Part shown: piece after piece, positions 27,943-55,341 of the stretch
Numbering within the stretch: the stretch's first letter is position 1
Layout of the letters: every line of letters starts with the position of its first letter
Assembly (NCBI GenBank): GCA_964016885.1
Contig: OZ024741.1
Location: 244,280,001-244,344,000, forward strand
Source of the DNA: Eledone cirrhosa
Lineage: Eukaryota
DNA: 64,000 nt
Direction of reading: 5' to 3'
Made by a program: the position numbers and the translations under genes
Notes under the pieces: generated by a model
Databases searched by the model: none
The model's input: the letters and a program-made list of their open reading frames with translations, nothing else
Told to the model about the DNA's origin: nothing

Positions 27943-30574
27943 TTACCAGTAATTACAGACCGATACGACCACGGGCGGCCGGCCCACGATCGAAAAGGTA
28001 ACTCCGCCGGCCAATCCGCATTTTTGTGATTCGTTTCTTCGAAGCACACCATTCGCCGCCGGACTTCAGCTTCCTCATTTAGCATGGGCAGCTTTTCTTG
28101 AAAATCACACCACACACAGCACATGTGTGTCTGCACATGTACCAGTACGTACAGATCGATCCGACCACGGGCGGCCGGCCCACATTCGAAAAGGTTACTC
28201 CGCCTGCAAATCGTCATTTTCGGATTCGTTTTCTTCGAAGCACACCATTCGCCGGCGGACTTCACCTGCCTCATTTAGCATGGGCAGCTTTTCTTGAAAA
28301 TCACACCACACACAGCAAATGTGTGTCTGCATATGTACCAGTAATTACAGATCGATCCGACCACGGGCGGCCGGCACAGGATCGAAAAGGTAACTCCAGC
28401 GGCAAATACGCATTTTTGTGATTCGTTTCTTCGAAGCCACCATTCGCTGGTGGACTTCAGCTTCCTCATTTAGCATGGGCAGCTTTTCTTGAAAATCACA
28501 CCACACTCAGCAAATGTATGTCTGCACATGTACCAGTAATGACAGATCGATCCGACCACGGGCGGCCTGCCCACGATCGAAAAGGTAACTCCGCCGGCAA
28601 ATTCGCATTTTTGTGATTCGTTTCTTCGAAGCACACCATTCGCTGGTGGACTTCAGCTTCCTCATTTAGCATGGGCAGCTTTTCTTGAAAATCACACCAC
28701 ACACAGCAAATGTGTGTCTGCACATGTACCAGTAATTACAGATCGATCCGACCACGGGCGGCCGGCCCACGATCGAGAAAAAGGTAACTCCGCCGGCAAA
28801 TAGTCATTTTTGTGATTCGTTTTCTTCGAAGCACACCATTCGCCGCCGGACTTCAGCTTCCTCATTTAGCATGGGCATCTTTTCTTGAAAATCACACCAC
28901 ACACGGAAAATGTGTGTCTGCACAGGTACCAGTAATTACAGATCGATCCGACCACGGGCGGCCGGCCCACGATCGAAAAGGTAACTCCGCCGGCAAATCC
29001 GCATTTTTGTGATTCGTTTCTTCGAAGCCACCATTCGCTGGTGGACTTCAGCTTCCTCATTTAGCATGGGCAGCTTTTCTTGAAAATCACACCACACACG
29101 GAAAATGTGTGTCTGCACAGGTACCAGTAATTACAGATCGATCCGACCACGGGCGGCCGGCCCACGATCGAAAAGGTAACTCCGCCGGCAAATCCGCATT
29201 TTTGTGATTCGTTTCTTCGAAGCACACCATTCGCCGCCGGACTTCAGCTTCCTCATTTAGCATGGGCAGCTTTTCTTGAAAATCACACCACACACAGCAA
29301 ATGTGTGTCTGCACATTTACCAGTAATTACAGACCGATATGACCACGGGCGGCCGGCCCACGATCGAAAAGGTAACTCCGCCGGCAAATCCGCATTTTTG
29401 TGATTCGTTTCTTCGAAGCACACCATTCGCTGGTGGACTTCAGCTTCCTCATTTAGCATGGGCAGCTTTTCTCGAGAATCACACCACACACAGCAAATGT
29501 GTGTCTGCACATGTACCAGTAATTACAGATCGATCCGACCACGGGCGGCCGGCCCACCATCGAAAAGGTAACTCCGCCGGCAAATCCTAATTTTTGTGAT
29601 TCGTTTCTTCGAAGCACACCATTCGCCGCCGGACTTCAGCTTCCTCATTTAGCATGGGCAGCTTTTCTTGAAAATCACACCAAACTCAGCAAATGTGTGT
29701 CTGCACAGGTATCAGTAATTACAGATCGATCCGCCCACGGGCGGCCGGCCCACCATCGAAAAGGTAACTCCGCCGGCAAATTCGCATTTTTGTGATTCGT
29801 TTCTTCGAAGCACACCATTCGCTGGTGGACTTCAGCTTCCTCATTTAGCATGGGCAGCTTTTCTTGAAAATCACACCACACACAGCAAATGTGTGTCTGC
29901 ATATGTACCAGTAATTACAGATCGATCCGACCACGGGCGGCCGGCCCACGATCGAAAAGGTAACTCCGCCGGCAAATCCTAATTTTTGTGATTCGTTTCT
30001 TCGAAGCACACCATTCGCCGCCGGACTTCAGCTTCCTCATTTAGCATGGGCAGCTTTTCTCGAAGATCACACCACACACAGCCAATGAGTGTTTGCACAT
30101 GTACCAGTAATTACAGATCGATCCGACCACGGGCGGCCGGCCCACGATCGAGAAAAAGGTAACTCCGCCGGCAAATAGTCATTTTTGTGATTCGTTTTCT
30201 TCGAAGCACACCATTCGCCGCCGGACTTCAGCTTCCTCATTTAGCATGGGCAGCTTTTCTTGAAAATCACACCACACACAGCAAATGTGTGTCTGCACAT
30301 GTACCAGTAATTACAGATCGATCCGACCATGGGCGGCCGGCCTACGATCGAAAAGGTAACTCCGCCGGCAAATCCTAATTTTTGTGATTCGTTTCTTCGA
30401 AGCACACCATTCGCCGCCGGACTTCAGCTTCCTCATTTAGCATGGGCAGTTTTTCTTGAAAATCACACCACACACAGGAAATGTGTGTCTGCACATGTAC
30501 CAGTACTTACAGTTCGACCCGACCACGGGCGGCCGGCCCAGGATCTAAAAGGTTACTCCGCCTGCAAATCGTCA

Positions 30575-33500
30575 TTTTTTTTTAAAATTATCTCCCCTTG
30601 GACGGCTGGAAATTATCTCCCCTTGGACGGCTAGAAATTATCTCCCCTTGTACGGCTAGAAATTACCTCTCCTTGGAGGGCTGAAAATTATCTCCCCTTG
30701 GACGGCTGGAAATTATCTCCCCTTGAATTTTTTTAAAAATTATCTCCAGCTGATTTTTTTTTACACATTATCTCCCCCTGATTTTTTTTATAAATTATCA
30801 CCCCCTGATTTTTTTTTACAAATTATCTCCCCCTGATTTTTTTTTACAAATTATCTCCCCCTGATTTTTTTACAAATTATCTCCCCTTGGCTGGCTGGAA
30901 ATTATCTCCCCTTGGAGGCTGGAATTTATCTCCCCTTGGACGGCTGGAAATTATCTCCCCTTGGACAGCTAGAAATTATCTCCCCTTGGACGGCTGCAAA
31001 TTATCTCCCCTTGGACGGCTGGAAATTATCGCCCCCTGATTTGTTTTAACAAATCTCCGCCTGATTTTTTTTTTAAATTATCTTCCTTGGACGGCTATAA
31101 ATTATCTCTCCTTCGACGGCTGGAAATTATCTCCCCTTGATTTTTTTACAAATTATATGCACCGGATTTTTTTTAACAAATTATCTACCCCTGATTTTTT
31201 TACAAATTATCTCCCCCTGATTTTTTTTTACAAATTATCTCCCCCTGATTTTTTTTTTTACAAATTATCTCCGCCTGATTTTTTTAAAATTATCTCGCCT
31301 TGGCTGGATGGAAATTATCTCCCCTTGGACGGCTGGAAATTATCTCCCCTTGGAAGGATGGAAATTATCTCCCCTTGGACGGCTGGAAATTATCTCCCCT
31401 TGCACGGCTGGAAATTATCTCCCCTTGGACGGCTAGAAATTACCTCTCCTTGGACGGCTGAAAATTATCTCCCCTTGGACGGCTGGAAATTATCTTCCCC
31501 TGATTTTTTTTACAAATTATCTCCCCTTGCACGGCTGGAAATTATCTCCCCTTGGACGGCTGGAAATTATCAGCCCTTGATTTTGTTTTTACAAATTATC
31601 TCCCCCTGATTTTTTTTAAAATTATCTCCTGATTTTTGAAAAAATTATCTCCCCTTCGACGGCTGGAAATTATCTCCCGTTTGCTGGAAATTATCTCCCC
31701 TTGGACGCTGGAAATTATAGCCCCTTGGAGGGCTGGAAATTATCTTCCCTTGGACGGCTGGAAATTATCTCCCCTTGATTTTTGTTACATATTATCTCCC
31801 CCTGATTTTTTTTTACAAATTATCTCCCCGATTTTTTTCTACAAATTATCTCCCCCTGATTTTTTTTTTACAAATTATCTCCGCCTGATTTTTTTAAAAA
31901 AATCTATCCTTGGACGGCTGGAAATTATCTCCCCTTGGACGGCTGGAAATTAACTCCCCTTGGACGGCTAGAAATTACCTCTCCTTGGACGGCTGAAAAT
32001 TATCTCCCCTTGGACGGCTGGAAATTATCTCCCCTTGATTTTTTTTACAAATTATCTCCCTCTGATTTTTTTTTACAAATTATCTCCCCCTGATTTTTTT
32101 TTTACAAATTATCTCCGCCTGATTTTTTAAAAAAAATTATCTCCCCTTGGACGGCTGGAAATTATCTCCCCTTGGACGGCTGGAAATTAACTCCCCTTGG
32201 ACGGCTAGAAATTACCTCTCCTTGGACGGCTGAAAATTATCTCCCCATGGCTGGCTGGAAATTATCTCCCCTTGGAGGCTGGAATTTATCTCCCCTTGGA
32301 CGGCTGGAAATTATCTCCCCTTGGACGGCTAGAAATTACCTCTCCTTGGACGGCTGGAAATTATCTCCCCTTGAACGGCTGGAAATTATCTCCCCTTGGA
32401 CGGCTGGAAATTATCTCCCCTTGGACGGCTGGAAATTATCTCCCCTTGGACGGCTAGAAATTACCTCTCCTTGGACGGCTGGAAATTATCTCCCCTTGGA
32501 CGGCTGGAAATTATCTCCCCTTGGACGGCTGGAAATTATTTCCCCTTGATTTTTTTTTACAAATTATCTACCCCTGATTTTTTTTTACAAATTATCTCCC
32601 CCTGATTTTTTTTACAAATTATCTCCCCCTGATTTTTTTTTTAAAAATTATCTCCCCCTGATTTTTTTACAAATTATCTCCCCCTGATTTTTTTTACAAA
32701 TTATCTCCGCCTGATTTTTTTAAATATTATCTTCCCTTGGCTGGCGGGAAATTATCTCCCCTTGGACGGCTGGAAATTATCTCCCTTTGGAAGGATGGAA
32801 ATTATCTCCCCTTGGACGGCTGGAAATTATCTCCCCTTGCACTGCTGGAAATTATCTCCCCTTGGACGGCTGGAAATTATCTGCCCTTGATTTTGTTTTT
32901 ACAAATTATCTTCCCCTGATTTTTTTTACAAATTATCTCCACCTGATTTTTTTAAAAATTATCTCCCCTTGGACGGCTGGAAATTATCTCCCCTTGGCTG
33001 GAAATTATCTCCCCTTGGACGGCTAGAAATTATCTCTCTTTGGACGGCTGGAAATTATCTCCCGTTGATTTTTTTTACAAATTATCTCCCCCTGATTTTT
33101 TTTTACAAATTATCTCCCCCTGATTTTTTTTTGCAACTTATCTCCGCCTGATTATTTTTTAAAAATTATCTCACCTTGGACGGCTGGAAATTATCTCCCA
33201 TTGATTTTTTTTTACAAATTATCTCCCCTTGGCTGGCTGGAAATTATCTCCCCTTGGCTGGCTGGAAATTATCTCCCCCTGATATTGTTTTACAAATTAG
33301 CTCCCCCTGTTTTTTTTTACAAATTATCTCCCCCTGATTTTTTTCACAAATTATCTCCCCCTGATTTTTTTTACAAATTATCTCCCCTGATTTAAAAAAA
33401 AATTATCTCCCCTTGGACGGCTGGAAATTATCGCCCCCTGATTTTTTTTAACAAATTATCTCCACCTGATTTTTTTTTAAAAATCATCTCCGCCTGATTT

Positions 33501-36500
33501 TTTTTTAAATTATCTCCCTTGGCTTGCTGGAAATTATCTCCCCTTGGACGGCTATAAATGATCTCTCCTTCGACGGCTGGAAATTATCTCCCCTTGATTT
33601 TTTTACAAATTATCTCCCCGTGATTTTTTTTTACCAATCTACCCCTGATTTAAAAAAAAAAATTGTCTCCCCTTCGCTGGCTGGAAATTATCTCCCCTTG
33701 GACGGCTGGAAATTATCTCCCCTTGATTTTTTTTACAAATTATCTACCCCTGATTTTTTTACAAATTATCTCCCCCTGATTTTTTTTTACAAATTATCTC
33801 CCCTGATTTTTGTTTTTACAAATTATCTCCGCCTGATTTTTTTAAAATTATCTCCCCTTGGCTGGATGGAAATTATCTCCCTTGGACGGCTGGAAATTAT
33901 CTCCCCTTGGAAGGATGGAAATTATCTCCCCTTGGACGGCTGGAAATTATCTCCCCTTGCACGGCTGGAAATTATCTCCCCTTGGACGGCTAGAAATTAC
34001 CTCTCCTTGGACGGCTGGAAATTATCTCCCCTTGGACGGCTGGAAATTATCTCCCCCTGATTTTTTTTACAAATTATCTCCCCTTCCACGGCTGGAAATT
34101 ATCTCCCCTTGGACGGCTGGAAATTATCTGCCCTTGATTTTGTTTTTACAAATTATCTCCCCCTGATTTTTTTTACAAATTATCTCCTGATTTTTGAAAA
34201 AATTATCTCCCCTTGGACGGCTGGAAATTATCTCCCGTTGGCTGGAAATTATCTCCCCTTGGACGGCTAGAAATTATCTCTCTTTGGACGGCTGGAAATT
34301 ATCTCCCCTTGATTTTTTTTACAAATTATCTCCCCCTGATTTTTTTTACAAATCTCCCAGTGATTTTTTAAAAAAATTATCTCCATTTCGCTGGCTGGAA
34401 ATTATCTCCCCTTGGACGGCTGGAAATTATCTCCCATTGGACGGCTGGAAATTATCTCCCCTTGGACGGCTAGAAATTACCTCTCCTTGGACGGCTGAAA
34501 ATTATCTCCCCTTGGACGGCTGGAAATTATCTCCCCTTGATTTTTTTTACAAATTATCTCCCTCTGATTTTTTTTTACAAATTATCTCCCCCTGATTTTT
34601 TTTTACAAATTATCTCCCCTTGAACGGCTGGAAATTATCTCCCCTTGGACGGCTGGAAATTATCTCCCCTTGGACGGCTGGAAATTATCTCCCCTTGGAC
34701 GGCTAGAAATTACCTCTCCTTGGAGGGCTGGAAATTATCTCCCCTTGGACGGCTGTAAATTATCTCCCCTTGGACGGCTGGAAATTATTTCACCTTGATT
34801 TTTTTTACAAATTATCTCCCCCTGATTTTTTTTACAAATCTCCCCCTAATTTAAAAAAAAATTATCTCCCCTTCGCTGGCTGGAAATTATCTCCCTTTGG
34901 ACGGCTGGAAATTATAGCTGCTTGTAGGGCTGGAAATTATCTCCCCTTGGACGGCTGGAAATTATCTCCCCTTGATTTTTTTTACTAATTATCTCCCCCT
35001 GATTTTTTTTTACAAATTATCTCCGCCTGATTTTTTTTTTTAAATTATCTCCCCTTGGCTGGATGGAAATTTTCTCCCCTTGGACGGCTGGAAATTATCT
35101 CCCCTTTATGTCTTCTACAAATTAACTACCCCTGATTTTTTTTTACAAATTATCTCTCCCTGATTTTTTTTACAAATATCTCCCCTTGGCTGGCTGGAAA
35201 TTATCTGCCCTTGGCTGGCTGGAAATTATCTCCCCTTGGACGGCTGGAAATTATCTCCCCTTGGACGCCTAGAAATTACCTCTCCTTGGACAGCTGTAAA
35301 TTATCTCCCCTTGGACCGCTGGAAATTATCTCCCCTTGGACGGCTGGAAATTATCTCCCCTTGCACGGCTGGAAATTATCTCCCCTTGGACGGCTAGAAA
35401 TTACCTCTCCTTGGACGGCTGGAAATTATCTCCCCTTGGACGGCTGGAAATTATCTCCCCCTGATTTTTTTTACAAATTATCTCCCCTTCCACGGCTGGA
35501 AATTATCTCCCCTTGGACGGCTGGAAATTATCTGCCCTTGATTTTGTTTTTACAAATTATCTCCCCCTGATTTTTTTTACAAATTATCTCCTGATTTTTG
35601 AAAAAATTATCTCCCCTTGGACGGCTGGAAATTATCTCCCGTTGGCTGGAAATTATCTCCCCTTGGACGGCTAGAAATTATCTCTCTTTGGACGGCTGGA
35701 AATTATCTCCCCTTGATTTTTTTTACAAATTATCTCCCCCTGATTTTTTTTACAAATCTCCCAGTGATTTTTTAAAAAAATTATCTCCATTTCGCTGGCT
35801 GGAAATTATCTCCCCTTGGACGGCTGGAAATTATCTCCCATTGGACGGCTGGAAATTATCTCCCCTTGGACGGCTAGAAATTACCTCTCCTTGGACGGCT
35901 GAAAATTATCTCCCCTTGGACGGCTGGAAATTATCTCCCCTTGATTTTTTTTACAAATTATCTCCCTCTGATTTTTTTTTACAAATTATCTCCCCCTGAT
36001 TTTTTTTACAAATTATCTCCCCTTGAACGGCTGGAAATTATCTCCCCTTGGACGGCTGGAAATTATCTCCCCTTGGACGGCTGGAAATTATCTCCCCTTG
36101 GACGGCTAGAAATTACCTCTCCTTGGAGGGCTGGAAATTATCTCCCCTTGGACGGCTGTAAATTATCTCCCCTTGGACGGCTGGAAATTATTTCCCCTTG
36201 ATTTTTTTTACAAATTATCTCCCCCTGATTTTTTTTACAAATCTCCCCCTAATTTAAAAAAAAATTATCTCCCCTTCGCTGGCTGGAAATTATCTCCCTT
36301 TGGACGGCTGGAAATTATAGCTGCTTGTAGGGCTGGAAATTATCTCCCCTTGGACGGCTGGAAATTATCTCCCCTTGATTTTTTTTACTAATTATCTCCC
36401 CCTGATTTTTTTTTACAAATTATCTCCGCCTGATTTTTTTTTTAAAATTATCTCCCCTTGGCTGGATGGAAATTTTCTCCCCTTGGACGGCTGGAAATTA

Positions 36501-39500
36501 TCTCCCCTTTATGTCTTCTACAAATTAACTACCCCTGATTTTTTTTTACAAATTATCTCTCCCTGATTTTTTTTACAAATATCTCCCCTTGGCTGGCTGG
36601 AAATTATCTGCCCTTGGCTGGCTGGAAATTATCTCCCCTTGGACGGCTGGAAATTATCTCCCCTTGGACGCCTAGAAATTACCTCTCCTTGGACAGCTGT
36701 AAATTATCTCCCCTTGGACCGCTGGAAATTATCTCGCCTTGGACGGCTGGAAATTATCTCCCCTTGATTTTGTATACAAATTATCTCCCCCTGATTTTTT
36801 TTTACAAATTATCTGCCCCTGATTATTTTTTTACAAATTAGCTCCGCCCGATTATTTTTTAAAATTATCTCCCCTTGGACGGCTGGAAATTATCTCCCCT
36901 TGGACGGCTGGAAATTATCTCCCCTTGAACGGCTAGAAATTACCTCTCCTTGGACGGCTGAAAATTATCTCCCCTTGGACGGCTGGAAATTATCTCCCCT
37001 TGATTTTTTGACAAATTATCTCCGCCTGATTTTTTTAAATATTATCTTCCCTTGGCTGGCGGGAAATTATCTCCCCCTGGACGGCTGGAAATTATCTCCC
37101 CTTGGAAGGATGGAAATTATCTCCCCTTGGACGGCTGGAAATTATCTCCCCTTGCACTGCTGGAAATTATCTCCCCTTGGACGGCTGGAAATTATCTGCC
37201 CTTGATTTTGTTGTTACAAATTATCTTCCCCTGATTTTTTTTACAAATTATCTCCACCTGATTTTTTAAAAAATTATCTCCCCTTGGACGGCTGGAAATT
37301 ATCTCCCCTTGGCTGGAAATTATCTTCCCTTGGACGGCTAGAAATTACCTCTCCTTGGACGGCTGAAAATTATCTCCCCTTGGACGGCTGGAAATTATCT
37401 CCCCTTGATTTTTTTCTACAAATTATCTCCCCCTGATTTTTTTTTTTACAAATTATCTCCGCCTGATTTTTTTTTAAAAATTATCTCCCCTTGGCTGGCT
37501 GGAAATTATCTCCCCTTGGAGGCTGGAATTTATCTCCCCTTGGACGGCTAGAAATTACCTCTCCTTGGACGGCTGGAAATTATGTCTCCTTGGACGGCTG
37601 GAAATTATCTCCCCTTGGACGGCTGGAAATTATCTCCCCTTGGACGGCTAGATATTACCTCTCCTTGGTCGGCTGGAAATTATCTGCCCTTGGACGGCTG
37701 GAAATTATCTCCCCTTGGACGGCTGGAAATTAATTCCCCTTGATTTTTTTTACAAATTATCTCCCCCTGATTTTTTTTTACAAATCTCCCCCTAATTTAA
37801 AAAAAAATTATCTCCCCTTCGCTGGCTGGAAATTATCTTCCTTTGGACGGCTGGAAATTATAGCCGCTTGTAGGGCTGGAAATGATCTCCCCTTGGACGG
37901 CTGGAAATTATCTCCCCTTGATTTTTTTTTCTAATTATCTCACCCTGATTTTTTTTACAAATTATCTCCGCCTGATTTTTTAAAAAAAATTATCTCCCCT
38001 TCGCTGGCTGGAAATTATCTCCCCTTGGACGCTGAAAATTATAGCCCCTTGGAGGCTGGAAATTATCTTCCCTTGGACGACTGGAAATTATCTCCCCTTG
38101 ATTTTTTTACAAATTATCTCCCCCTGATTTTTTTTTACAAATTATCTCCCCTTGGCTGGCTGGAAATTATCTCCCCTTGGCTGGCTGGAAATTATCTCCC
38201 ACTGATATTTTTTTACAAATTAGCTCCCCCTGATTTTTTTTTACAAATTATCTCCCCTTGGACGGCTGGAAATTATCTCCCCTTGGACGGCTGGAAATTA
38301 TCGCCCCCTGATTTTTTTTAACAAATTATCTCCACCTGATTTTTTTTACAAATCATCTCCGCCTGATTTTTTTTAAAAATTATCTCCCTTGGCTTGCTGG
38401 AAATTATCTCCCCTTGGACGGCTATAAATTATCTCTCCTTCGACGGCTGGAAATTATCTCCCCTTGATTTTTTTACAAATTATCTCCCCCTGATTTTTTT
38501 TTACCAATCTACCCCTGATTTTAAAAAAAAATTATCTCCCCTTCGCTGGCTGGAAATTATCTCCCCTTGGACGGCTGGAAATTATCTCCCCTTGATTTTT
38601 TTTACAAATTATCTACCCCTGATTTTTTTACAAATTATCTCCCCCTGATTTTTTTTTACAAATTATCTCCCCCTGATTTTTTTTTTTACAAATTATCTAC
38701 CCCTGATTTTTTTAAAATTATCTCCCCTTGGCTGGATGGAAATTATCTCCCCTTGGACGGCTGGAAATTATCTCCCCTTGCACGGCTGGAAATTATCTTC
38801 CCTTGGACGGCTAGAAATTACCTCTCCTTAGACGGCTGAAAATTATCTCGCCTTGGACGGCTGGAAATTATCTCCCCCTGATTTTTTTACAAATTATCTC
38901 CCCTTGCACGGCTGGAAATTATCTCCCCTTGGACGGCTGGAAATTATCTACCCTTGGACGGCTAGAAATTATCTCTCTTTGGACGGCTGGAAATTATCTC
39001 CCCTTGATTCTTTTTACAAATTATCTCCCCCTGATTTTTTTTACAAATCTCCCAGTGATTTTTTAAAAAAAATTATCTCCCCTTCGCTGGCTGGAAATTA
39101 TCTCCCCTTGGACGCTGGAAATTATAGCCCCTTGGAGGCTGGAAATTATCTTCCCTTGGACGGCTGGAAATTATCTCCCCTTGATTTTTTTACAAATTAT
39201 CTCCCCCTGATTTTTTTTTACAAATTATCTCCCCCTGATTTTTTTTTTACAAATTATCTCCGCCTGATTTTTTTAAAAAAATGATCTCCCCTTGGACGGC
39301 TTGAAATTATCTCCCCTTGGACGGCTAGAAATTACCTCTCCTTGGACGGCTGAAAATTATCTCCCCTTGATTTTATTTTACATATTATCTACCCCTGATT
39401 TTTTTTTACAAATTATCTCCACCTGATCTTTTTTACAAATTATCTCCCCCTGATTTTTTTTTACAAATTATCTCCCCCTGATTTTTTTACAAATTATCTC

Positions 39501-40917
39501 CCCCTAATTTATTTTACAAATTATCTCCGCCTGATTTTTTTAAATATTATCTTCCCTTGGCTGGCGGGAAATAATCTCCCCTTGGACGGCTGGAAATTAT
39601 CTCCCCTTGGAAGGATGGAAATTATCTCCCCTTGGACGGCTGGAAATTATCTCCCCTTGCACGGCTGGAAATTATCTCCCCTTGGACGGCTGGAAATTAT
39701 CTCCCCTTGGCTGGAAATTATCTCCCCTTGGACAGCTAGAAATTATCTCTCTTTGGACGGCTGGAAATTATCTCCCCTTGATTTTTTTTACAAATTATCT
39801 CCCCCTGATTTTTTTTACAAATCTCCCAGTGATTTTTAAAAAAAAATTATCTCCCTTTCGCTGGCTGGAAATTATCCTCCCTTGGACGCTGGAAATTATA
39901 GCCCCTTGGAGGGCTGGAAATTATCTTCCCTTGGACGGCTGGAAATTATCTCCCCTTGATTTTTTTTACATATTATCTCCCCCTGATTTTTTTTTACAAA
40001 TTATCTCCCCGATTTTTTTACACAAATTATCTCCCCCTGATTTTTTTTTTACAAATTATCTCCGCCTGATTTTTTTTAAAAAATTATCTCCCCTTGGACG
40101 GCTGGAAATTATCTCCCCTTGATTTTTTTTACAAATTATCTCCCCCTGATTTTTTTTTACAAATTATCTCCCCCTGATTTTTTTTACAAATTATCTCTCC
40201 CTGATTTTTTTACAAATTATCTCCCCTTGGCTGGCTGGAAATTATCTCCCCTTGGAGGCTGGAATTTATCTCCCCTTGGACGGCTGGAAATTATCTCCCC
40301 TTGGACGGCTAGAAATTACCTCTCCTTGGACGGCTGGAAATTATCTCCTTTTGAACGGCTGGAAATTATCTCCCCTTGGACGGCTGGAAATTATCTCCCC
40401 TTGGACGGCTGGAAATTATCTCCCCTTGGACGGCTGGAAATTATTTCCCCTTGATTTTTTTTACAAATTATCTCCACCTGATTTTTTTTACAAATCTCCC
40501 CCTAATTTAAAAAAAAATTATCTCCCCTTCGCTGGCTGGAAATTATCTCCCTTTGGACGGCTGGAAATTATAGCTGCTTGTAGGGCTGGAAATTATCTCC
40601 CCTTGGACGGCTGGAAATTATCTCCCCTTGATTTTTTTTACTAATTATCTCCCCCTGATTTTTTTATAAATATCTCCCCTTGGCTGCCTGGAAATTATCT
40701 CCCCTTGGCAGGCTGGAAATGATCTCCCCTTGGACGGCTGGAAATTATCTCCCCTTGGACGCCTAGAAATTACCTCTCCTTGGACAGCTGTAAATTATCT
40801 CCCCTTGGACGGCTGGAAATTATCTCGCCTTGGACGGCTGGAAATTATCTCCCCTTGATTTTGTATACAAATTATCTCCCCCTGATTTTTTTTTACCAAT
40901 CTACCCCTGATTTAAAA
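30575..40917. repeat. SatB minisatellite block 1: ~25-28 bp units with constant core AAATTATCTCCCC plus a GC tail (TTGGACGGCTGG) or a T tail (CTGATTTTTTTTAC)
   Basis: Continuous runs of GGAAATTATCTCCCCTTGGACGGCT (25 bp) are interspersed with ACAAATTATCTCCCCCTGAT(n) over ~10.3 kb, roughly 400 units. Confidence 0.97.
33916..36735. repeat. ~1403-bp tandem duplication inside SatB block 1
   Basis: The same order of variant units recurs at +1403/1404 (ORFs 34194/35598, 34770/36173, 35211/36614; TTTATGTCTTCTACAAATTAACTACC at ~35105 and ~36508). Confidence 0.9.
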
Positions 40918-43619: not shown

Positions 43620-46600
43620 TCTTGAAAATCACACCACACACAGCAAATGTGTGTCTGCACATGTACCAGTACGTACAGATCGATCCGACCACGGGCGGCC
43701 GGCCCACATTCGAAAAGGTTACTCCGCCTGCAAATCGTCATTTTCGGATTCGTTTTCTTCGAAGCACACCATTCGCTGGTGAACTTCAGCTTCCTCATTT
43801 AGCATGGGCAACTTTTCTTGAAAATCACATCACACACAGCAAATGTGTGTCTGCACATGTACCAGTAATTACAGATCGATCCCACCACGGGCGGCCGGCC
43901 CGCGATTGAAAAGGTAACTCCGCCGGCAAATCGTCATTTTTGGATTCGTTTTCTTCGAAGCACACCATTCGCCGGCGGACTTTGTTGACGTTTAACACGG
44001 TTTGGTTCCACAGCCACAACTATTGATTTTACGGAGATATCTTGCTGAAATTCACGCCACACATAGCCAATGAGTGTCTGCACATGTACCAGTAATTACA
44101 GATCGATCCCACCACGGGCGGCCGGCCCACGATCGAAAAGGTAACTCCGCTGGCAAATCGTCATTTTTGTGATTCGTTTTCTTCGAAGCACACCATTCGG
44201 CGGCGGACTTTGTTGACGTTTAACACGGTTTGGTTCCACAGCCACAACTATTGATTTTACGGAGATATCTTGCTGAAATTCACGCCACACACAGCCAATG
44301 AGTGTCTGCACATGTACCAGTAATTACAGATCGATCCGACCACGGGCGGCCGGCCCGCGATTGAAAAGGTAACTCCGCCGGCAAATCGTCATTTTTGTGA
44401 TTCGTTTTCTTCGAAGCACATTATTCGCCGGCGGACTTCAGCTTCCTCATTTAGCATGGGCAGTTTTTCTTGAAGATCACACCACACACAGCCAATGAAT
44501 GTTTGCACAGGTACCAGTAATTACAGATCGATCCGACCACGGGCGGCCGGCCCACGATCGAAAAGGTAACTCCGCTGGCAAATCCGCATTTTTGTGATTC
44601 GTTTCTTCGAAGCACACCATTCGCCGCCGGACTTCAGCTGCCTCATTTAGCATGGGCAGTTTTTTTTGAAAATCACACCACACACAACCAATGTGTGTCT
44701 GCACATGTACCAGTAATTACAGATCGATCCCACCACGAGTTCAATGTAAACAAACTTACGCTCAACGACTTTGTTGACGTTTAACACGGTTTGGTTCCAC
44801 AGCCACAACTATTGATTTTACGGAGATATCTTGCTGAAAGCCAATGAGTGTCTGCACATGTACCAGTAATTACAGATCGATCCGACCACGGGCGGTCGGC
44901 CCGCGATTGAAAAGGTAACTCCGCCGGCAAATCCGCATTTTTGTGATTCGTTTCTTCGAAGCACACCATTCGCCGGCGGACTTCAGCTTCCTCATTTAGC
45001 ATGGGCAGTTTTTCTTAAAAATCACACCACACACAGGAAATGTGTGTCTGCACAGGTACCAGTAATTACAGATCGATCCGACCACGGGCGGCCGGCCTAC
45101 GATCGAAAAGGTAACTCCGCCGGCAAATCCTAATTTTTGTGATTCGTTTCTTCGAAGCACACCATTCGCCGCCGGACTTCAGCTTCCTCATTTAACATGG
45201 GCAGCTTTTCTTGAAAATCACACCACACACAGCAAATGTGTGTCGGCACATTTACCAGTAATTACAGATCGATCCGACCCCGGGCGGCCGGCCCACGATC
45301 GAAAAGGTAACTCCGCCGGCATATCCGCATTTTTGTGATTCGTTTCTTCGAAGCACACCATTCGCCGCCGGACTTCAGCTTCCTCATTTAGCATGGGCAG
45401 CTTTTCTTGAAAATCACACCACACACAGCAAATGTGTGTCTGCACATGTACCAGTAATTACAGATCGATCCGACCACGGGCGGCCGGCCCACGATCGAAA
45501 ATGTAACTCCGCCGGCAAATTCGCATTTTTGTGATTCGTTTCTTCGAAGCACACCATTCGCCGCCGGACTTCAGCTTCCTCATTTAGCATGGGCAGCTTT
45601 TCTTGAAAATCACACCACACACAGCAAATGTGTGTCTGCACATGTACCAGTACGTACAGATCGATCCGACCACGGGCGGCCGGCCCACATTCGAAAAGGT
45701 TACTCCGCCTGCAAATCGTCATTTTCGGATTCGTTTTCTTCGAAGCACACCATTCGCTGGTGAACTTCAGCTTCCTCATTTAGCATGGGCAACTTTTCTT
45801 GAAAATCACATCACACACAGCAAATGTGTGTCTGCACATGTACCAGTAATTACAGATCGATCCCACCACGGGCGGCCGGCCCGCGATTGAAAAGGTAACT
45901 CCGCCGGCAAATCGTCATTTTTGGATTCGTTTTCTTCGAAGCACACCATTCGCCGGCGGACTTTGTTGACGTTTAACACGGTTTGGTTCCACAGCCACAA
46001 CTATTGATTTTACGGAGATATCTTGCTGAAATTCACGCCACACATAGCCAATGAGTGTCTGCACATGTACCAGTAATTACAGATCGATCCCACCACGGGC
46101 GGCCGGCCCACGATCGAAAAGGTAACTCCGCTGGCAAATCGTCATTTTTGTGATTCGTTTTCTTCGAAGCACACCATTCGGCGGCGGACTTTGTTGACGT
46201 TTAACACGGTTTGGTTCCACAGCCACAACTATTGATTTTACGGAGATATCTTGCTGAAATTCACGCCACACACAGCCAATGAGTGTCTGCACATGTACCA
46301 GTAATTACAGATCGATCCGACCACGGGCGGCCGGCCCGCGATTGAAAAGGTAACTCCGCCGGCAAATCGTCATTTTTGTGATTCGTTTTCTTCGAAGCAC
46401 ATTATTCGCCGGCGGACTTCAGCTTCCTCATTTAGCATGGGCAGTTTTTCTTGAAGATCACACCACACACAGCCAATGAATGTTTGCACAGGTACCAGTA
46501 ATTACAGATCGATCCGACCACGGGCGGCCGGCCCACGATCGAAAAGGTAACTCCGCTGGCAAATCCGCATTTTTGTGATTCGTTTCTTCGAAGCACACCA

Positions 46601-49600
46601 TTCGCCGCCGGACTTCAGCTGCCTCATTTAGCATGGGCAGTTTTTTTTGAAAATCACACCACACACAACCAATGTGTGTCTGCACATGTACCAGTAATTA
46701 CAGATCGATCCCACCACGAGTTCAATGTAAACAAACTTACGCTCAACGACTTTGTTGACGTTTAACACGGTTTGGTTCCACAGCCACAACTATTGATTTT
46801 ACGGAGATATCTTGCTGAAAGCCAATGAGTGTCTGCACATGTACCAGTAATTACAGATCGATCCGACCACGGGCGGTCGGCCCGCGATTGAAAAGGTAAC
46901 TCCGCCGGCAAATCCGCATTTTTGTGATTCGTTTCTTCGAAGCACACCATTCGCCGGCGGACTTCAGCTTCCTCATTTAGCATGGGCAGTTTTTCTTAAA
47001 AATCACACCACACACAGGAAATGTGTGTCGGCACATTTACCAGTAATTACAGATCGATCCGACCCCGGGCGGCCGGCCCACGATCGAAAAGGTAACTCCG
47101 CCGGCATATCCGCATTTTTGTGATTCGTTTCTTCGAAGCACACCATTCGCCGCCGGACTTCAGCTTCCTCATTTAGCATGGGCAGCTTTTCTTGAAAATC
47201 ACACCACACACAGCAAATGTGTGTCTGCACATGTACCAGTAATTACAGATCGATCCGACCACGGGCGGCCGGCCCACGATCGAAAATGTAACTCCGCCGG
47301 CAAATTCGCATTTTTGTGATTCGTTTCTTCGAAGCACACCATTCGCCGCCGGACTTCAGCTTCCTCATTTAGCATGGGCAGCTTTTCTTGAAAATCACAC
47401 CACACACAGCAAATGTGTGTCTGCACAGGTACCCGTAATTACAGATCGATCCGACCACGGGCGGCCGGCCTACGATCGAAAAGGTAACTCCGCCGGCAAA
47501 TCCTAATTTTTGTGATTCGTTTCTTCGAAGCACACCATTCGCCGCCGGACTTCAGCTTCCTCATTTAACATGGGCAGCTTTTCTTGAAAATCACACCACA
47601 CACAGCAAATGTGTGTCGGCACATTTACCAGTAATTACAGATCGATCCGACCCCGGGCGGCCGGCCCACGATCGAAAAGGTAACTCCGCCGGCATATCCG
47701 CATTTTTGTGATTCGTTTCTTCGAAGCACACCATTCGCCGCCGGACTTCAGCTTCCTCATTTAGCATGGGCAGCTTTTCTTGAAAATCACACCACACACA
47801 GCAAATGTGTGTCTGCACATGTACCAGTAATTACAGATCGATCCGACCACGGGCGGCCGGCCCACGATCGAAAATGTAACTCCGCCGGCAAATTCGCATT
47901 TTTGTGATTCGTTTCTTCGAAGCACACCATTCGCCGCCGGACTTCAGCTTCCTCATTTAGCATGGGCAGCTTTTCTTGAAAATCACACCACACACAGCAA
48001 ATGTGTGTCTGCACATGTACCAGTACGTACAGATCGATCCGACCACGGGCGGCCGGCCCACATTCGAAAAGGTTACTCCGCCTGCAAATCGTCATTTTCG
48101 GATTCGTTTTCTTCGAAGCACACCATTCGCTGGTGAACTTCAGCTTCCTCATTTAGCATGGGCAACTTTTCTTGAAAATCACATCACACACAGCAAATGT
48201 GTGTCTGCACATGTACCAGTAATTACAGATCGATCCCACCACGGGCGGCCGGCCCGCGATTGAAAAGGTAACTCCGCCGGCAAATCGTCATTTTTGGATT
48301 CGTTTTCTTCGAAGCACACCATTCGCCGGCGGACTTTGTTGACGTTTAACACGGTTTGGTTCCACAGCCACAACTATTGATTTTACGGAGATATCTTGCT
48401 GAAATTCACGCCACACATAGCCAATGAGTGTCTGCACATGTACCAGTAATTACAGATCGATCCCACCACGGGCGGCCGGCCCACGATCGAAAAGGTAACT
48501 CCGCTGGCAAATCGTCATTTTTGTGATTCGTTTTCTTCGAAGCACACCATTCGGCGGCGGACTTTGTTGACGTTTAACACGGTTTGGTTCCACAGCCACA
48601 ACTATTGATTTTACGGAGATATCTTGCTGAAATTCACGCCACACACAGCCAATGAGTGTCTGCACATGTACCAGTAATTACAGATCGATCCGACCACGGG
48701 CGGCCGGCCCGCGATTGAAAAGGTAACTCCGCCGGCAAATCGTCATTTTTGTGATTCGTTTTCTTCGAAGCACATTATTCGCCGGCGGACTTCAGCTTCC
48801 TCATTTAGCATGGGCAGTTTTTCTTGAAGATCACACCACACACAGCCAATGAATGTTTGCACAGGTACCAGTAATTACAGATCGATCCGACCACGGGCGG
48901 CCGGCCCACGATCGAAAAGGTAACTCCGCTGGCAAATCCGCATTTTTGTGATTCGTTTCTTCGAAGCACACCATTCGCCGCCGGACTTCAGCTGCCTCAT
49001 TTAGCATGGGCAGTTTTTTTTGAAAATCACACCACACACAACCAATGTGTGTCTGCACATGTACCAGTAATTACAGATCGATCCCACCACGAGTTCAATG
49101 TAAACAAACTTACGCTCAACGACTTTGTTGACGTTTAACACGGTTTGGTTCCACAGCCACAACTATTGATTTTACGGAGATATCTTGCTGAAAGCCAATG
49201 AGTGTCTGCACATGTACCAGTAATTACAGATCGATCCGACCACGGGCGGTCGGCCCGCGATTGAAAAGGTAACTCCGCCGGCAAATCCGCATTTTTGTGA
49301 TTCGTTTCTTCGAAGCACACCATTCGCCGGCGGACTTCAGCTTCCTCATTTAGCATGGGCAGTTTTTCTTAAAAATCACACCACACACAGGAAATGTGTG
49401 TCTGCACAGGTACCAGTAATTACAGATCGATCCGACCACGGGCGGCCGGCCTACGATCGAAAAGGTAACTCCGCCGGCAAATCCTAATTTTTGTGATTCG
49501 TTTCTTCGAAGCACACCATTCGCCGCCGGACTTCAGCTTCCTCATTTAACATGGGCAGCTTTTCTTGAAAATCACACCACACACAGCAAATGTGTGTCGG

Positions 49601-52400
49601 CACATTTACCAGTAATTACAGATCGATCCGACCCCGGGCGGCCGGCCCACGATCGAAAAGGTAACTCCGCCGGCATATCCGCATTTTTGTGATTCGTTTC
49701 TTCGAAGCACACCATTCGCCGCCGGACTTCAGCTTCCTCATTTAGCATGGGCAGCTTTTCTTGAAAATCACACCACACACAGCAAATGTGTGTCTGCACA
49801 TGTACCAGTAATTACAGATCGATCCAACCACGGGCGGCCGGCCCACGATCGAAAAGGTAACTCCGCCGGCAAATCCTAATTTTTGTGATTCGTTTCTTCG
49901 AAGCACACCATTCGCCGCCGGACTTCAGCTTCCTCATTTAGCATGGGCAGCTTTTCTTGAAAATCACACCACACACAGCAAATGTGTGTCTGCACATGTA
50001 CCAGTACGTACAGATCGATCCGACCACGGGCGGCCGGCCCACATTCGAAAAGGTTACTCCGCCTGCAAATCGTCATTTTCGGATTCGTTTTCTTCGAAGC
50101 ACACCATTCGCTGGTGAACTTCAGCTTCCTCATTTAGCATGGGCAACTTTTCTTGAAAATCACATCACACACAGCAAATGTGTGTCTGCACATGTACCAG
50201 TAATTACAGATCGATCCCACCACGGGCGGCCGGCCCGCGATTGAAAAAGTAACTCCGCCGGCAAATCGTCATTTTTGGATTCGTTTTCTTCGAAGCACAC
50301 CATTCGCCGGCGGACTTTGTTGACGTTTAACACGGTTTGGTTCCACAGCCACAACTATTGATTTTACGGAGATATCTTGCTGAAATTCACGCCACACATA
50401 GCCAATGAGTGTCTGCACATGTACCAGTAATTACAGATCGATCCCACCACGGGCGGCCGGCCCACGATCGAAAAGGTAACTCCGCCGGCAAATCCTAATT
50501 TTTGTGATTCGTTTCTTCGAAGCACACCATTCGCCGCCGGACTTCAGCTTCCTCATTTAGCATGGGCAGCTTTTCTTAAAAATCACACCACACTCAGCAA
50601 ATGTGTGTCTGCACAGGTATCAGTAATTACAGATCAATCCGCCCACGGGCGGCCGGCCCACCATCGAAAAGGTAACTCCGCCGGCAAATTCGCATTTTTG
50701 TGATTCGTTTTCTTCGAAGCACACCATTCGCCGCCGGACTTCAGCTTCCTCATTTAGCATGGGCAGCTTTTCTTGAAAATCACACCACACACAGCAAATG
50801 TGTGTCTGCACATGTACCAGTAATTACAGATCGATCCAACCACGGGCGGCCGGCCCACGATCGAAAAGGTAACTCCGCCGGCAAATCCTAATTTTTGTGA
50901 TTCGTTTCTTCGAAGCACACCATTCGCCGCCGGACTTCAGCTTCCTCATTTAGCATGGGCAGCTTTTCTTGAAAATCACACCACACACAGCAAATGTGTG
51001 TCTGCACATGTACCAGTACGTACAGATCGATCCGACCACGGGCGGCCGGCCCACATTCGAAAAGGTTACTCCGCCTGCAAATCGTCATTTTCGGATTCGT
51101 TTTCTTCGAAGCACACCATTCGCTGGTGAACTTCAGCTTCCTCATTTAGCATGGGCAACTTTTCTTGAAAATCACATCACACACAGCAAATGTGTGTCTG
51201 CACATGTACCAGTAATTACAGATCGATCCCACCACGGGCGGCCGGCCCGCGATTGAAAAAGTAACTCCGCCGGCAAATCGTCATTTTTGGATTCGTTTTC
51301 TTCGAAGCACACCATTCGCCGGCGGACTTTGTTGACGTTTAACACGGTTTGGTTCCACAGCCACAACTATTGATTTTACGGAGATATCTTGCTGAAATTC
51401 ACGCCACACATAGCCAATGAGTGTCTGCACATGTACCAGTAATTACAGATCGATCCCACCACGGGCGGCCGGCCCACGATCGAAAAGGTAACTCCGCTGG
51501 CAAATCGTCATTTTTGTGATTCGTTTTCTTCGAAGCACACCATTCGGCGGCGGACTTTGTTGACGTTTAACACGGTTTGGTTCCACAGCCACAACTATTG
51601 ATTTTACGGAGATATCTTGCTGAAATTCACGCCACACACAGCCAATGAGTGTCTGCACATGTACCAGTAATTACAGATCGATCCGACCACGGGCGGCCGG
51701 CCCGCGATTGAAAAGGTAACTCCGCCGGCAAATCGTCATTTTTGTGATTCGTTTTCTTCGAAGCACATTATTCGCCGGCGGACTTCAGCTTCCTCATTTA
51801 GCATGGGCAGTTTTTCTTGAAGATCACACCACACACAGCCAATGAATGTTTGCACAGGTACCAGTAATTACAGATCGATCCGACCACGGGCGGCCGGCCC
51901 ACGATCGAAAAGGTAACTCCGCTGGCAAATCCGCATTTTTGTGATTCGTTTCTTCGAAGCACACCATTCGCCGCCGGACTTCAGCTGCCTCATTTAGCAT
52001 GGGCAGTTTTTTTTGAAAATCACACCACACACAACCAATGTGTGTCTGCACATGTACCAGTAATTACAGATCGATCCCACCACGAGTTCAATGTAAACAA
52101 ACTTACGCTCAACGACTTTGTTGACGTTTAACACGGTTTGGTTCCACAGCCACAACTATTGATTTTACGGAGATATCTTGCTGAAAGCCAATGAGTGTCT
52201 GCACATGTACCAGTAATTACAGATCGATCCGACCACGGGCGGTCGGCCCGCGATTGAAAAGGTAACTCCGCCGGCAAATCCGCATTTTTGTGATTCGTTT
52301 CTTCGAAGCACACCATTCGCCGGCGGACTTCAGCTTCCTCATTTAGCATGGGCAGTTTTTCTTAAAAATCACACCACACACAGGAAATGTGTGTCTGCAC
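43620..52400. repeat. Higher-order repeat of SatA array 2 (4 copies; periods 1981, 2373 and 2993 bp) marked by cassette-bearing monomers
   Basis: The marker GAGTTCAATGTAAACAAAC lies at 44737, 46718, 49091 and 52084. Each is preceded by the same ordered set of variant monomers. Confidence 0.92.
44738..44838. other. 101-bp non-SatA cassette embedded in a SatA monomer (long form; also at ~46719, ~49092 and ~52085)
   Basis: AGTTCAATGTAAACAAACTTACGCTCAACGACTTTGTTGACGTTTAACACGGTTTGGTTCCACAGCCACAACTATTGATTTTACGGAGATATCTTGCTGAA replaces most of a monomer, giving a 153-bp unit. Its 3' ~70 bp also occurs in nine 227/228-bp monomers. Confidence 0.9.
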
Positions 52401-52480
52401 ATGTACCAGTACTTACAGTTCGACCCGACCACGGGCGGCCGGCCCAGGATCTAAAAGGTTACTCCGCCTGCAAATCGTCA

Positions 52481-55341
52481 TTTTTTTTTAAATTATCTCC
52501 CCTTGGACGGCTGGAAATTATCTCCCCTTGGACGGCTAGAAATTATCTCCCCTTGTACGGCTAGAAATTACCTCTCCTTGGACGGCTGAAAATTATCTCC
52601 CCTTGGACGGCTGGAAATTATCTCCCCTTGAATTTTTTTAAAAATTATCTCCCGCTGATTTTTTTTTACACATTATCTCCCCCTGATTTTTTTCACAAAT
52701 TATCACCCCCTGATTTTTTTTTACAAATTATCTCCCCCTGATTATTTTTTACAAATTATCTCCCCCTGATTTTTTTACAAATTATCTCCCCTTGGCTGGC
52801 TGGAAATTATCTCCCCTTGGAGGCTGGAATTTATCTCCCCTTGGACGGCTGGAAATTATCTCCCCTTGGACAGCTAGAAATTATCTCCCCTTGGACGCTG
52901 GAAATTATAGCCCCTTGGAGGGCTAGAAATTATCTTCCCTTGGACGGCTGGAAATTATCTCCCCTTGATTTTTTTTACAAATTATCTCCCAGTGATTTTT
53001 TTTAAAAAATTATCTCCCCTTCGCTGGCTGGAAATTATCTCCCCTTGGACGCTGGAAATTATAGCCCCTTGGAGGGCTGGAAATTATCTTCCCTTGGACG
53101 GCTGGAAATTATCTCCCCTTAATTTTTTTTACAAATTATCTCCCCCTGATTTTTTTTTACAAATTATCTCCCCCTGATTTTTTTTTAACAAATTATCTCC
53201 CCTTGGACGACTGGAATTTATCTCCCCTTGGACGGCTGGAAATTATCTCCCCTTGGACGGCTAGAAATTACCTGTCCTTGGACGGCTGGAAATTATCTCC
53301 CCTTGAACGGCTGGAAATTATCTCCCCTTGGACGGCTGGAAATTATCTCCCCTTGGACGGCTGGAAATTATCTCCCCTTGGACGGCTAGAAATTACCTCT
53401 CCTTGGACGGCTGGAAATTATCTCCCCTTGGACGGCTGGAAATTATTTCCCCTTGATTTTTTTTACAAATTATCTCCCCCTGATTTTTTTTACAAATCTC
53501 CCCCTAATTTAAAAAAAAATTATCTCTCCTTCGCTGGCTGGAAATTATCTCCCTTTGGACGGCTGGAAATTATAGCCGCTTGTAGGGCTGGATATTATCT
53601 CCCCTTGGACGGCTGGAAATTATCTCCCCTTGATTTTTTTTACTAATTATCTACGCCTGATTTTTTTAAAAAATTATCTCCCCTTGGCTGGATGGAAATT
53701 TTCTCCCCTTGGACGGCTGGAAATTATCTCCCCTTGATGTCTTCTACAAATTATCTACCCCTGATTTTATTTTCACAAATATCTCCCCTTGGCTGGCTGG
53801 AAATTATCTCCCCTTGGCTGGCTGGAAATTATCTCCCCTTGGACGGCTGGAAATTATCTCCCCTTGGCAGCCTAGAAATTACCTCTCCTTGGACAGCTGT
53901 AAATTATCTCCCCTTGGACGGCTGGAAACTATCTCGCCTTGGACGGCTGGAAATTATCTCCCCTTGATTTTGTATACAAATTATCTCCCACTGATTTTTT
54001 TTTACAAATTATCTCCCCCTGATTTTTTTTTTACAAATTATCTCCGCCTGATTTTTTTTTTAAATTATCTCCCCTTGGACGGCTGGAAATTATCTCCCCT
54101 TGATTTTTTTTACAAATTATCTCCCCCTGATTTTTTTTTACAAATTATCTCCCCCTGATTTTTTTTACAAATTATCACCCCGTGATTTTTTTTTACAAAT
54201 TATCTCCCCCTGATTTTTTTTTACAAATTTTCTCCCCCTGATTTTTTTACAAATTATCTCCCCTTGGCTGGCTGGAAATTATCTCCCCTTGGACGCCTGG
54301 AAATTATCTCCCCTTGGACAGCTAGAAATTACCTCTCCTTGGACGGCTGGAAATTATCTCCCCTTGGACGGCTAGAAATTACCTCTCCTTGGACGGCTGA
54401 AAATTATCTCCCCTTGGACGGCTGCAAATTATCTCCCCTTGATTTTTTTTACAAATTATCTCCCCCTGATTTTTTTTTACAAATTATCTACCCTTGATTT
54501 TTTTACAAATTATCTCCCCCTGATTTTTTTTTACAAATTATCTACCCCTGATTTTTTTTACAAATTATCTCCCCCTGATTTATTTTTACAAATTATCTCC
54601 CCCTGATTTTATTTTACAAATTATCTCCCCCTGATTTTTTTTACAATCTCCGCCTGATTTTTTTAAAAATTATCTTCCCTTTGGCTGGCGGGAAATTATC
54701 TCCCCTTGGACGGCTGGAAATTATCTCCCCTTGGAAGGATGGAAATTATCTCCCCTTGGACGGCTGGAAATTATCTCCCCTTGCACGGCTGGAAATTATC
54801 TCCCCTTGGACGGCTAGAAATTACCTCTCCTTGGACGGCTGAAAATTATCTCCCCTTGGAAGGATGGAAATTATCTCCCCTTGGACAGCTGGAAATTATC
54901 TACCCTTGATTTTGTTTTTACAAATTATCTCCCCCTGATTTTTTTTACAAATTATCTCCACCTGATTTTTTAAAAAATTATCTCCCCTTGGACGGCTGGA
55001 AATTATCTCCCCTTGGCTGGAAATTATCTCCCCTTGGACGGCTAGAAATTATCTCTCTTTGGACGGCTGGAAATTATCTCCCTTTGATTTTTTTTACAAA
55101 TTATCTCCCTCTGATTTTTTTTACAAATCTCCCCCTGATTTTTTTTTAAAAATTATCTCCCCTTTGCTGGCTGGAAATTATCTCCCCTTGGACACTGGAA
55201 ATTATAGCCCCTTGGAGGGCTGGAAATTATCTTCTCTTGGACGGCTGGAAATTATCTCCCCTTGGTTTTTTTTACAAATTATCTCCCCCTGATTTTTTTT
55301 TACAAATTATCTCCCCCTGATTTTTTTTTTACAAATTATCT
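52481..55341. repeat. SatB minisatellite block 2 (truncated by the assembly gap)
   Basis: It has the same core, tails, orientation and rare variants as block 1. Confidence 0.97.

What the first reader, a model, noticed from the sequence alone, without database searches (positions are those of the whole stretch)
30465..52897. The same SatA->SatB junction occurs twice, 21.9 kb apart: two unrelated satellites may be amplified as one composite macro-repeat
Seen: both SatA arrays end in the same monomer, which I found nowhere else in the window (CAGTACTTACAGTTCGACCCGACC...CCCAGGATCTAAAAGGTTACTCCGCCTGCAAATCGTCA-T9). Each is followed by the same ordered ~400 bp of SatB variants (TTGTACGG, TTGAATTTT, TACACATTATC, TATCACCCCC, GGAGGCTGGAATTTATC, GGACAGCTAG). 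The two copies are ~30465-30992 and ~52370-52897, offset 21,906 bp. They differ at several substitutions (GGAGGGCTG/GGACGGCTG, CCAGCTG/CCCGCTG, TTATAAA/TCACAAA), which argues against a simple assembly double. Outside this ~530-bp segment the flanking arrays are ordered differently. Inference: one fusion event created an [SatA]n-[SatB]m super-unit that was duplicated (unequal exchange or rolling-circle amplification). The interiors then turned over independently while the junction stayed conserved.
Basis: partly seen in the sequence, partly recalled or inferred. Interest (0 to 1): 0.75.

Follow-up and report, generated by a model that had tools for sequence, protein, structure and literature searches.

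The report
Three-copy satellite junction, one tandem duplication
Two unrelated repeated-DNA families are joined by the same junction at three places in this genome assembly (twice here, once on another scaffold), which likely reflects one old fusion that was copied between two repeat arrays and then duplicated once locally, an ordinary kind of repeat shuffling and not a giant composite repeat.

Summary
In detail: both SatA arrays end in the same 528-bp SatA|SatB block (6 differences). The macro-repeat reading fails. Four genome-wide pattern searches found only 4 direct SatA/SatB contacts: one A->B breakpoint in 3 copies (J1 and J2 here, J3 on scaffold C4) and one unique B->A joint, K. J2 is colinear with J3 for 1.3 kb into SatA. 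A diagnostic SatA variant occurs only beside J2 (4 of 48 hits) and in the C4 array holding J3 (44 of 48). The first monomers after K copy a site 1 kb before J1, best of about 3,365 monomers, and the monomer before J1 is a recombinant. Both joints sit on 5-bp microhomologies. Best model: one fusion, one copy between arrays, one tandem duplication, then local turnover that built a 2-3 kb hybrid higher-order repeat. Unproven: that the two loci lie on different chromosomes (this contig is satellite-only for the 1.1 Mb read) and read support for K. Interspersed unrelated satellites are a known kind. Interest 0.3.

The parts
1..30574 (+). A1: end of a gapless 670-kb SatA array (196/200-bp monomers, no insert-type monomers, no SatB)
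29521..29910 (+). Likely source of the right side of joint K: best match to the first two monomers of A2; 29521-29525 is the AATTA microhomology
   Evidence: 10 differences in 388 bp, next best 15, among about 3,365 monomers; a 36-bp run occurs once in A1, at 29692
30307..30502 (+). Recombinant monomer before J1: 5' part A1-type, 3' part like the monomer before J2; crossover within 30417-30449
30465..30992 (+). J1: shared junction block (about 110 bp SatA, identical in all three copies, plus 418 bp SatB)
30574..30578 (+). A->B breakpoint: 5-bp microhomology ATTTT
   Evidence: table 7 (A-only contigs leave after 30578, B-only contigs enter at 30574); (0.6% of 200,000 random joins reach 5 bp)
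30575..40917 (+). B1: 10.3-kb SatB block with one internal 1,403-bp duplication; closest sampled relative is the C4 array beside J3
40918..40922 (+). K: the only B->A joint found in the assembly; 5-bp microhomology AATTA
40918..52480 (+). A2: 11.6-kb hybrid SatA block; A1-type monomers alternate with C4-type insert blocks in units spaced 1,981, 2,373 and 2,993 bp
43865..45061 (+). Insert-type block (227, 228, 197, 196, 153, 196 bp), first of four full copies (also from 45846, 48219, 51212; partial at 50200)
51181..52480 (+). SatA stretch colinear with the DNA before J3 on C4 (1,261 matches, 31 mismatches, whole-monomer indels and one 15-bp deletion)
52371..52897 (+). J2: second copy of the junction block; breakpoint at 52480-52484
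52481..55341 (+). B2: SatB cut by the contig end; its bases 1790-2509 match C4 SatB 342-1059 at 98.6%
55342..55541 (.). 200-N assembly gap; what follows B2 is unknown
55542..64000 (+). SatC (20 bp), another contig; runs about 11 kb and joins SatA directly; not part of the duplication

Best explanation
One SatA-to-SatB junction stands in three copies (J1 and J2 here, J3 on scaffold C4) beside one unique reverse joint (K), and these likely record a single microhomology-mediated fusion, one copy between two SatA arrays and one local tandem duplication, not an amplified super-repeat. Steps: (1) SatA fused to SatB once at ATTTT (breakpoint shown, mechanism inferred). (2) A segment of at least 1.3 kb insert-type SatA + junction + SatB came to lie at two loci, likely by ectopic recombination between SatA arrays (shared descent shown; direction unresolved; different chromosomes rests on scaffolding). 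(3) At this locus a template switch or end-joining at AATTA likely went from about 10 kb inside SatB back to the SatA site now at 29521, giving A1-J1-B1-K-A2-J2-B2 (copy signature shown, mechanism inferred). (4) Unequal exchange likely removed the insert block in front of J1 (recombinant monomer shown) and multiplied the plain+insert unit inside the fenced-off A2 into a hybrid higher-order repeat. The 0.5-kb block likely persists because array edges are seldom exchanged, not because it has a function.
For: Census: 3 A->B loci, all one breakpoint; 1 B->A locus; 0 inverted contacts. Shared descent with C4: variant 21-mer, 4 of 48 hits in A2 and 44 of 48 in C4:247.41-247.53 Mb; J2/J3 colinear over 1.3 kb of SatA; 61-mer share of the A2 insert block 0.37-0.50 with four stretches of that C4 array against 0.11-0.20 for three insert-type stretches on C2; B1's top 5 and B2's top 2 of 25 sampled SatB stretches (101-mers) are from the C4 array. 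Duplication signature: A2's first two monomers match best 1 kb before J1 among about 3,365 monomers; their divergence (13/704) fits that of J1/J2 (6/528; Fisher p 0.36). J1 and J2 share two rare SatB variants that J3 lacks (4 and 1 occurrences in 267 kb). Microhomology of 5 bp or more arises in 0.6% of 200,000 random joins per direction. No A2 monomer is identical to an A1 monomer (0 of 54 against the 80 kb then held).
Against: In fixed register A2's first 1.27 kb ranks only 17th of 387 against the end of A1, so two later deletions are needed in copy 1. B1 and B2 are not colinear beyond 418 bp and share few long words (101-mer share 0.022 and 0.077), so heavy turnover must be assumed. The lead of C4 over other SatB arrays is modest (0.168 vs 0.095 for B1; 0.150 vs 0.108 for B2) and the 19 other stretches were picked from hit lists. 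C4:211.64 matches the insert block about as well (0.40), and insert-type SatA also occurs on C2 at 169.46, 244.6 and 244.8 Mb. The junction monomer is nearer to A1-type (6-8 differences) than to C4 monomers (9), which argues against simple import from C4. The contig was not anchored to unique C2 DNA.
Confidence: 0.6

Rival explanations
1. Templated insertion instead of tandem duplication: a break in A1 was repaired by one end invading the monomer before J2, copying junction plus SatB, and rejoining the other end at AATTA. A2's start would be the old continuation of A1.
For: Explains in one step why A1-type monomers run up to a crossover just before J1 and why A1 has no insert block. The source site lies five monomers before the crossover, and A1 has many local repeats at multiples of about 984 bp.
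Against: Needs an earlier local duplication to explain the 36-bp run found once in A1, and its divergence matches that of J1/J2, as one event predicts.
Confidence: 0.2
2. J3 is not on another chromosome: this contig is mis-scaffolded and belongs at the C4 gap, or J2 and J3 are the two haplotypes of one locus. This can hold together with the local duplication.
For: Both contigs end inside related SatB at 200-N gaps. The 1.125 Mb read of this contig is all satellite, which is hard to place.
Against: The SatA sides differ wholly: 670 kb plain SatA after a TTAGGG array here; 170 kb insert-type SatA running without a gap into 127 kb of non-satellite DNA on C4. A1 shares more 41-mers with SatA right of the gap on C2 (0.12-0.23) than with C4 (0.07-0.10).
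Confidence: 0.2
3. One reading: a composite [SatA]n-[SatB]m macro-repeat, amplified many times and collapsed at the gap.
For: One breakpoint in all three copies; the contig stops 2.9 kb after J2, so more units could be hidden.
Against: 3 + 1 contacts in 3.0 Gb including unplaced contigs; no K-like joint near J3; junction stretch at depth 27 in X17 while a SatB variant with 177 assembled copies lay at 492-4,063; B1 and B2 not colinear.
Confidence: 0.06
4. Assembly artefact: the 14.4 kb from K to the contig end is one chimeric read or a false duplicate.
For: The length is about one long read; no listed public contig bridged K.
Against: J1 and J2 differ at 6 sites; A2 shares no identical monomer with A1; K has a 5-bp microhomology and its right side copies a site 11 kb away in the same contig, which a random chimera would not do.
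Confidence: 0.04

Closest known systems
Interspersed non-homologous satellites pBuM / DBC-150 and pBuM / CDSTR130 in cactophilic Drosophila (Kuhn et al. 2009, not held, known only through citing passages; PMC5555486, passages)
   Same: Long arrays of unrelated satellites abut with abrupt switches and alternate within a contig; illegitimate recombination is proposed (PMC3694981 passages; PMC4877019 passages).
   Different: There a variety of junctions is reported. Here every A->B contact found is one breakpoint copied three times, on two scaffolds.
Complex higher-order repeats of divergent satellites in Meloidogyne chitwoodi and M. fallax (PMC3694981, passages)
   Same: Junctions fall in short shared motifs, one made of homopolymer tracts; mixed units get amplified.
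   Different: There the composite unit is of monomer scale, with motifs of about 20 bp. Here the A|B unit is tens of kb, not amplified, with 5-bp microhomology; the amplified hybrid is between two SatA subfamilies.
Array-end effect in concerted evolution (review PMC12692304, passages; Rsp and 1.688 loci, PMC5411766, passages)
   Same: Homogenisation is weaker at array ends; the junction monomer is at least 6 changes from any other sampled monomer yet identical in its three copies.
   Different: The edge is another satellite, and it was itself duplicated.

Membership tests
Composite macro-repeat (macrosatellite) | Many head-to-tail copies of the unit | tested here: not met
   2 local A->B junctions and 1 B->A joint; 3 + 1 in the assembly; the gap itself is untested
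Composite macro-repeat (macrosatellite) | Units colinear along their length | tested here: not met
   B1/B2 colinear for 418 bp only; A1 lacks the insert blocks of A2
Composite macro-repeat (macrosatellite) | High junction copy number in raw reads | tested here: inconclusive
   Depth 27 in X17 points low, but it is summed contig depth and the record was not listed
Interspersed non-homologous satellites | The two families are unrelated | tested here: met
   203 and 193 of 300 shuffles reach the real score
Interspersed non-homologous satellites | Abrupt junctions with no spacer, alternating long arrays | tested here: met
Interspersed non-homologous satellites | Interspersion seen on DNA fibres | not testable with these tools
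   needs fibre-FISH or long reads
Microhomology-mediated tandem duplication | One novel joint with short microhomology | tested here: met
   K unique, 5 bp; 0.6% by chance
Microhomology-mediated tandem duplication | DNA after the joint copies DNA upstream of the first copy | tested here: met
   best of about 3,365 monomers at 29523
Microhomology-mediated tandem duplication | The two copies are colinear throughout | tested here: not met
   rank 17 of 387 in fixed register; B1/B2 differ; later turnover must be assumed, so this is filed as likely origin, not as an intact duplication
Interchromosomal segmental duplication | Over 1 kb and over 90% identity at two loci (usual definition, recalled) | tested here: met
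   1.3 kb SatA at 97.6% plus SatB matches at 98.3-98.6%
Interchromosomal segmental duplication | Both loci anchored to unique DNA of different chromosomes | tested here: inconclusive
   J3 runs gap-free into non-satellite C4 DNA; J1/J2 not anchored within 1.125 Mb
Centromeric satellite | CENP-A/CenH3 binding | not testable with these tools
   no chromatin data

The most novel reading that the evidence does not exclude
A rare base-level fossil of satellite traffic between non-homologous chromosomes: SatA-SatA ectopic recombination carried a SatA|SatB junction with kilobases of both flanks from one chromosome to another, one template switch doubled it, and the SatA stretch fenced in by SatB bred a new 2-3 kb higher-order repeat that is half resident and half incoming subfamily. 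It would be the first step toward a composite repeat, caught at two units.
Probability: 0.5. Interest if true: 0.45.

Novelty: new member of a known kind. Interest (0 to 1): 0.3.

Why it matters
No function is indicated. Its value is as a marker. Satellite arrays erase their history, but this junction and the 48-copy variant tie two arrays on different scaffolds together and order four events. If the chromosome placement holds, it is a clean case of spread between chromosomes followed by birth of a hybrid higher-order repeat. It also gives unique sequence tags (J, K) to check scaffolding and to type individuals.

Tried and rejected
(B->A pattern, gap 0-30) missed its own positive control (true gap 36) and was replaced. 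(inverted contacts) have no positive control. One search scored only 40 of 1,477 candidates and is not used as a census. Laying runs on K: no listed contig spans it; the X18 record over 40866-40919 is a SatB-only variant that stops before SatA; contigs drop rare variants, so no verdict. RAD reads of X21 mostly break near AATT sites with unrelated flanks, read as library chimeras, not dispersed satellite pieces (inference). The X19 record at depth 40 has 3 differences in 66 bases and is not the junction. My early idea that insert-type SatA is absent from C2 outside A2 was wrong; my idea that one SatB 27-mer marks the C4 array was wrong (177 hits on several arrays). A2 start as an exact in-register copy of the A1 end was rejected. 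The exact SatB donor of the junction was not found in 267 kb. Rfam: 0 matches in 29000-58000. Anchoring the contig to unique C2 DNA failed within the fetch cap. Earlier-findings look-ups returned nothing. Six paper searches gave no paper that I could tie to these satellites; they search words, not sequence, and no repeat library was available. PMC13553610 and PMC13192020 were seen as passages and added nothing on junction copying. No supplements were read; junction sequences in Kuhn et al. 2009 could not be seen.
Full report
Setting. The window is G000:C2:244,280,001-244,344,000 in a 3.0-Gb assembly of 1,796 contigs. It holds SatA (196 bp), SatB (25/28 bp), SatA, SatB, a 200-N gap and SatC (20 bp). 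Names used: A1 (to 30574), J1, B1, K (40918-40922), A2, J2 (52480), B2. Rfam gave 0 matches in 29000-58000. SatA and SatB are unrelated: 203 and 193 of 300 shuffles reached the real alignment score.

Observation. Confirmed. The blocks 30465-30992 and 52371-52897 differ at 6 of 528 bases. The terminal monomer's motifs occur only twice in the window. The first 418 bp of SatB after J2 match at most 95.0% at non-junction places in 25 sampled 10-kb stretches.

Census. The exact junction pattern has 3 hits: J1, J2 and J3 at C4:247,409,581, minus strand. A phase-free pattern (SatA 12-mer, up to 230 bases, SatB 13-mer) found the same 3 loci and no other. The reverse order found 1 locus, K. Two inverted patterns found 0 (no positive control). 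Limits: both motifs must be exact and close, one haplotype is assembled, and gaps are unseen. Upstream, A1 is a gapless 670-kb array with no SatB and no insert-type monomer, preceded by a TTAGGG array; there is no gap in 243.21-244.335 Mb. On C4 the order is non-satellite DNA, gap, 60 kb SatB, J3, 77 kb SatA, an inversion, 92 kb SatA, then 127 kb of non-satellite DNA without a gap. So there is no alternating series in the assembly.

Reads. In public contigs of run X17 the junction-specific stretch 30518-30541 has depth 27, against about 3e5 for common SatA and 6e6 for SatB; that record was not listed, so I cannot say it is exact. A SatB variant with 177 assembled copies lay at depths of 492 to 4,063 in three runs. 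The tool warns that such depth is no copy number, so this is weak support for a handful of copies. No listed contig bridged K: no verdict. Two other organisms (X1, X2) hold SatB but nothing at 95% likeness over 30470-30571.

Kinship with C4. The three copies are identical over the last 110 bp of SatA; pairwise differences over the block are 6 (J1/J2), 9 (J1/J3) and 7 (J2/J3). J1 and J2 share two rare SatB variants absent from J3. The 1.3 kb before J2 aligns to the DNA before J3 with 1,261 matches and 31 mismatches, apart from whole-monomer indels and a 15-bp deletion. One SatA 21-mer has 48 hits in the assembly: 4 in A2 and 44 in C4:247.41-247.53 Mb. B1 and B2 are closest to the C4 array among 25 sampled stretches, with matches of 1,028 bp at 98.5% and 720 bp at 98.6%, but the lead is modest and the sample was picked from hit lists. 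Against a simple import from C4: insert-type SatA also occurs elsewhere on C2 and C1, C4:211.64 fits the insert block about as well, and the junction monomer is nearer to A1-type monomers (6-8 differences) than to C4 ones (9). Direction is unresolved.

Local history. A2 alternates about 1 kb of A1-type monomers with about 1 kb of C4-type insert monomers, four full blocks and one partial. Its first two monomers match best at window 29523, 1 kb before J1, with 10 differences in 388 bp against 15 for the next of about 3,365 monomers; a 36-bp run occurs once in A1, at 29692. The monomer before J1 switches from A1-type to pre-J2-type within 30417-30449. Both joints lie on 5-bp microhomologies (ATTTT, AATTA), reached by 0.6% of 200,000 random joins. 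Divergence of the SatA copies (13/704) is compatible with that of J1/J2 (6/528; p 0.36). Against: in fixed register the end of A1 ranks 17th of 387, and B1 and B2 part after 418 bp, so later deletions and turnover are assumed.

Model (0.6). One fusion; one copy between SatA arrays, likely by ectopic recombination; one tandem duplication, likely by a template switch from SatB back to SatA; then unequal exchange that removed the insert block before J1 and multiplied the hybrid unit in A2. That the structure is low-copy and not a macro-repeat I put at about 0.9. Rivals: templated insertion (0.2), mis-scaffolding or two haplotypes (0.2; compatible with the local duplication), hidden macro-repeat (0.06), artefact (0.04).

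Known systems. Alternating arrays of unrelated satellites are described in cactophilic Drosophila (PMC5555486, passages), with illegitimate recombination proposed by Kuhn et al. 2009 (not held; seen through PMC3694981 and PMC4877019 passages). Motif-based junctions and mixed higher-order repeats occur in Meloidogyne. Weak homogenisation at array ends is stated in PMC12692304 and PMC5411766 (passages). Template-switch and end-joining mechanisms are recalled knowledge, not tested. Six word searches found nothing I could tie to these satellites.

Verdict. Real, well resolved, of a known kind; not the composite macro-repeat proposed. Interest 0.3; 0.45 if the two-chromosome placement is shown.

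Noticed in passing
G000:C2 about 242.0-243.64 Mb (L048-L053, L080, L093, L099, L161-L200): Degenerate TTAGGG array inside the scaffold: continuous over 243.21-243.64 Mb and present in samples at 242.0, 242.5 and 243.0 Mb; it abuts SatA and holds a 1.4-kb SatA island at 243,631,6xx.
   Followed up: partly
L022 (G000:C3:184,746,3xx-184,750,4xx): Three short SatA pieces, one with an inverted fragment, among TTAGGG repeats.
   Followed up: no
G000:C4:247,530,894-247,578,396: 47-kb array of the 227-bp SatA insert variant with 99% matches between copies, likely a very recent expansion at the array's outer edge.
   Followed up: no
G000:C4 about 247,486,450 (L047): Abrupt strand inversion inside SatA with no gap.
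   Followed up: no
L011 (C2 about 244,346,700) and L023/L024 (C1 about 279,700,100): Direct SatC->SatA junction on C2, and a different junction from SatA into a SatC-like repeat on C1; SatA fuses readily with several satellites.
   Followed up: partly
window 44713-44865 and copies; L021, L024, L028: About 85-bp foreign insert that replaces part of the SatA monomer (153/168/227/228-bp variants); its head 24-mer has 385 hits, of which the 100 listed lie on C1-C4. Origin unknown.
   Followed up: partly
   Followed up: no
L027 (C4:211.625 Mb) and L056 (C2:245.2 Mb): Two further short-period tandem repeats next to SatA or SatB domains.
   Followed up: no
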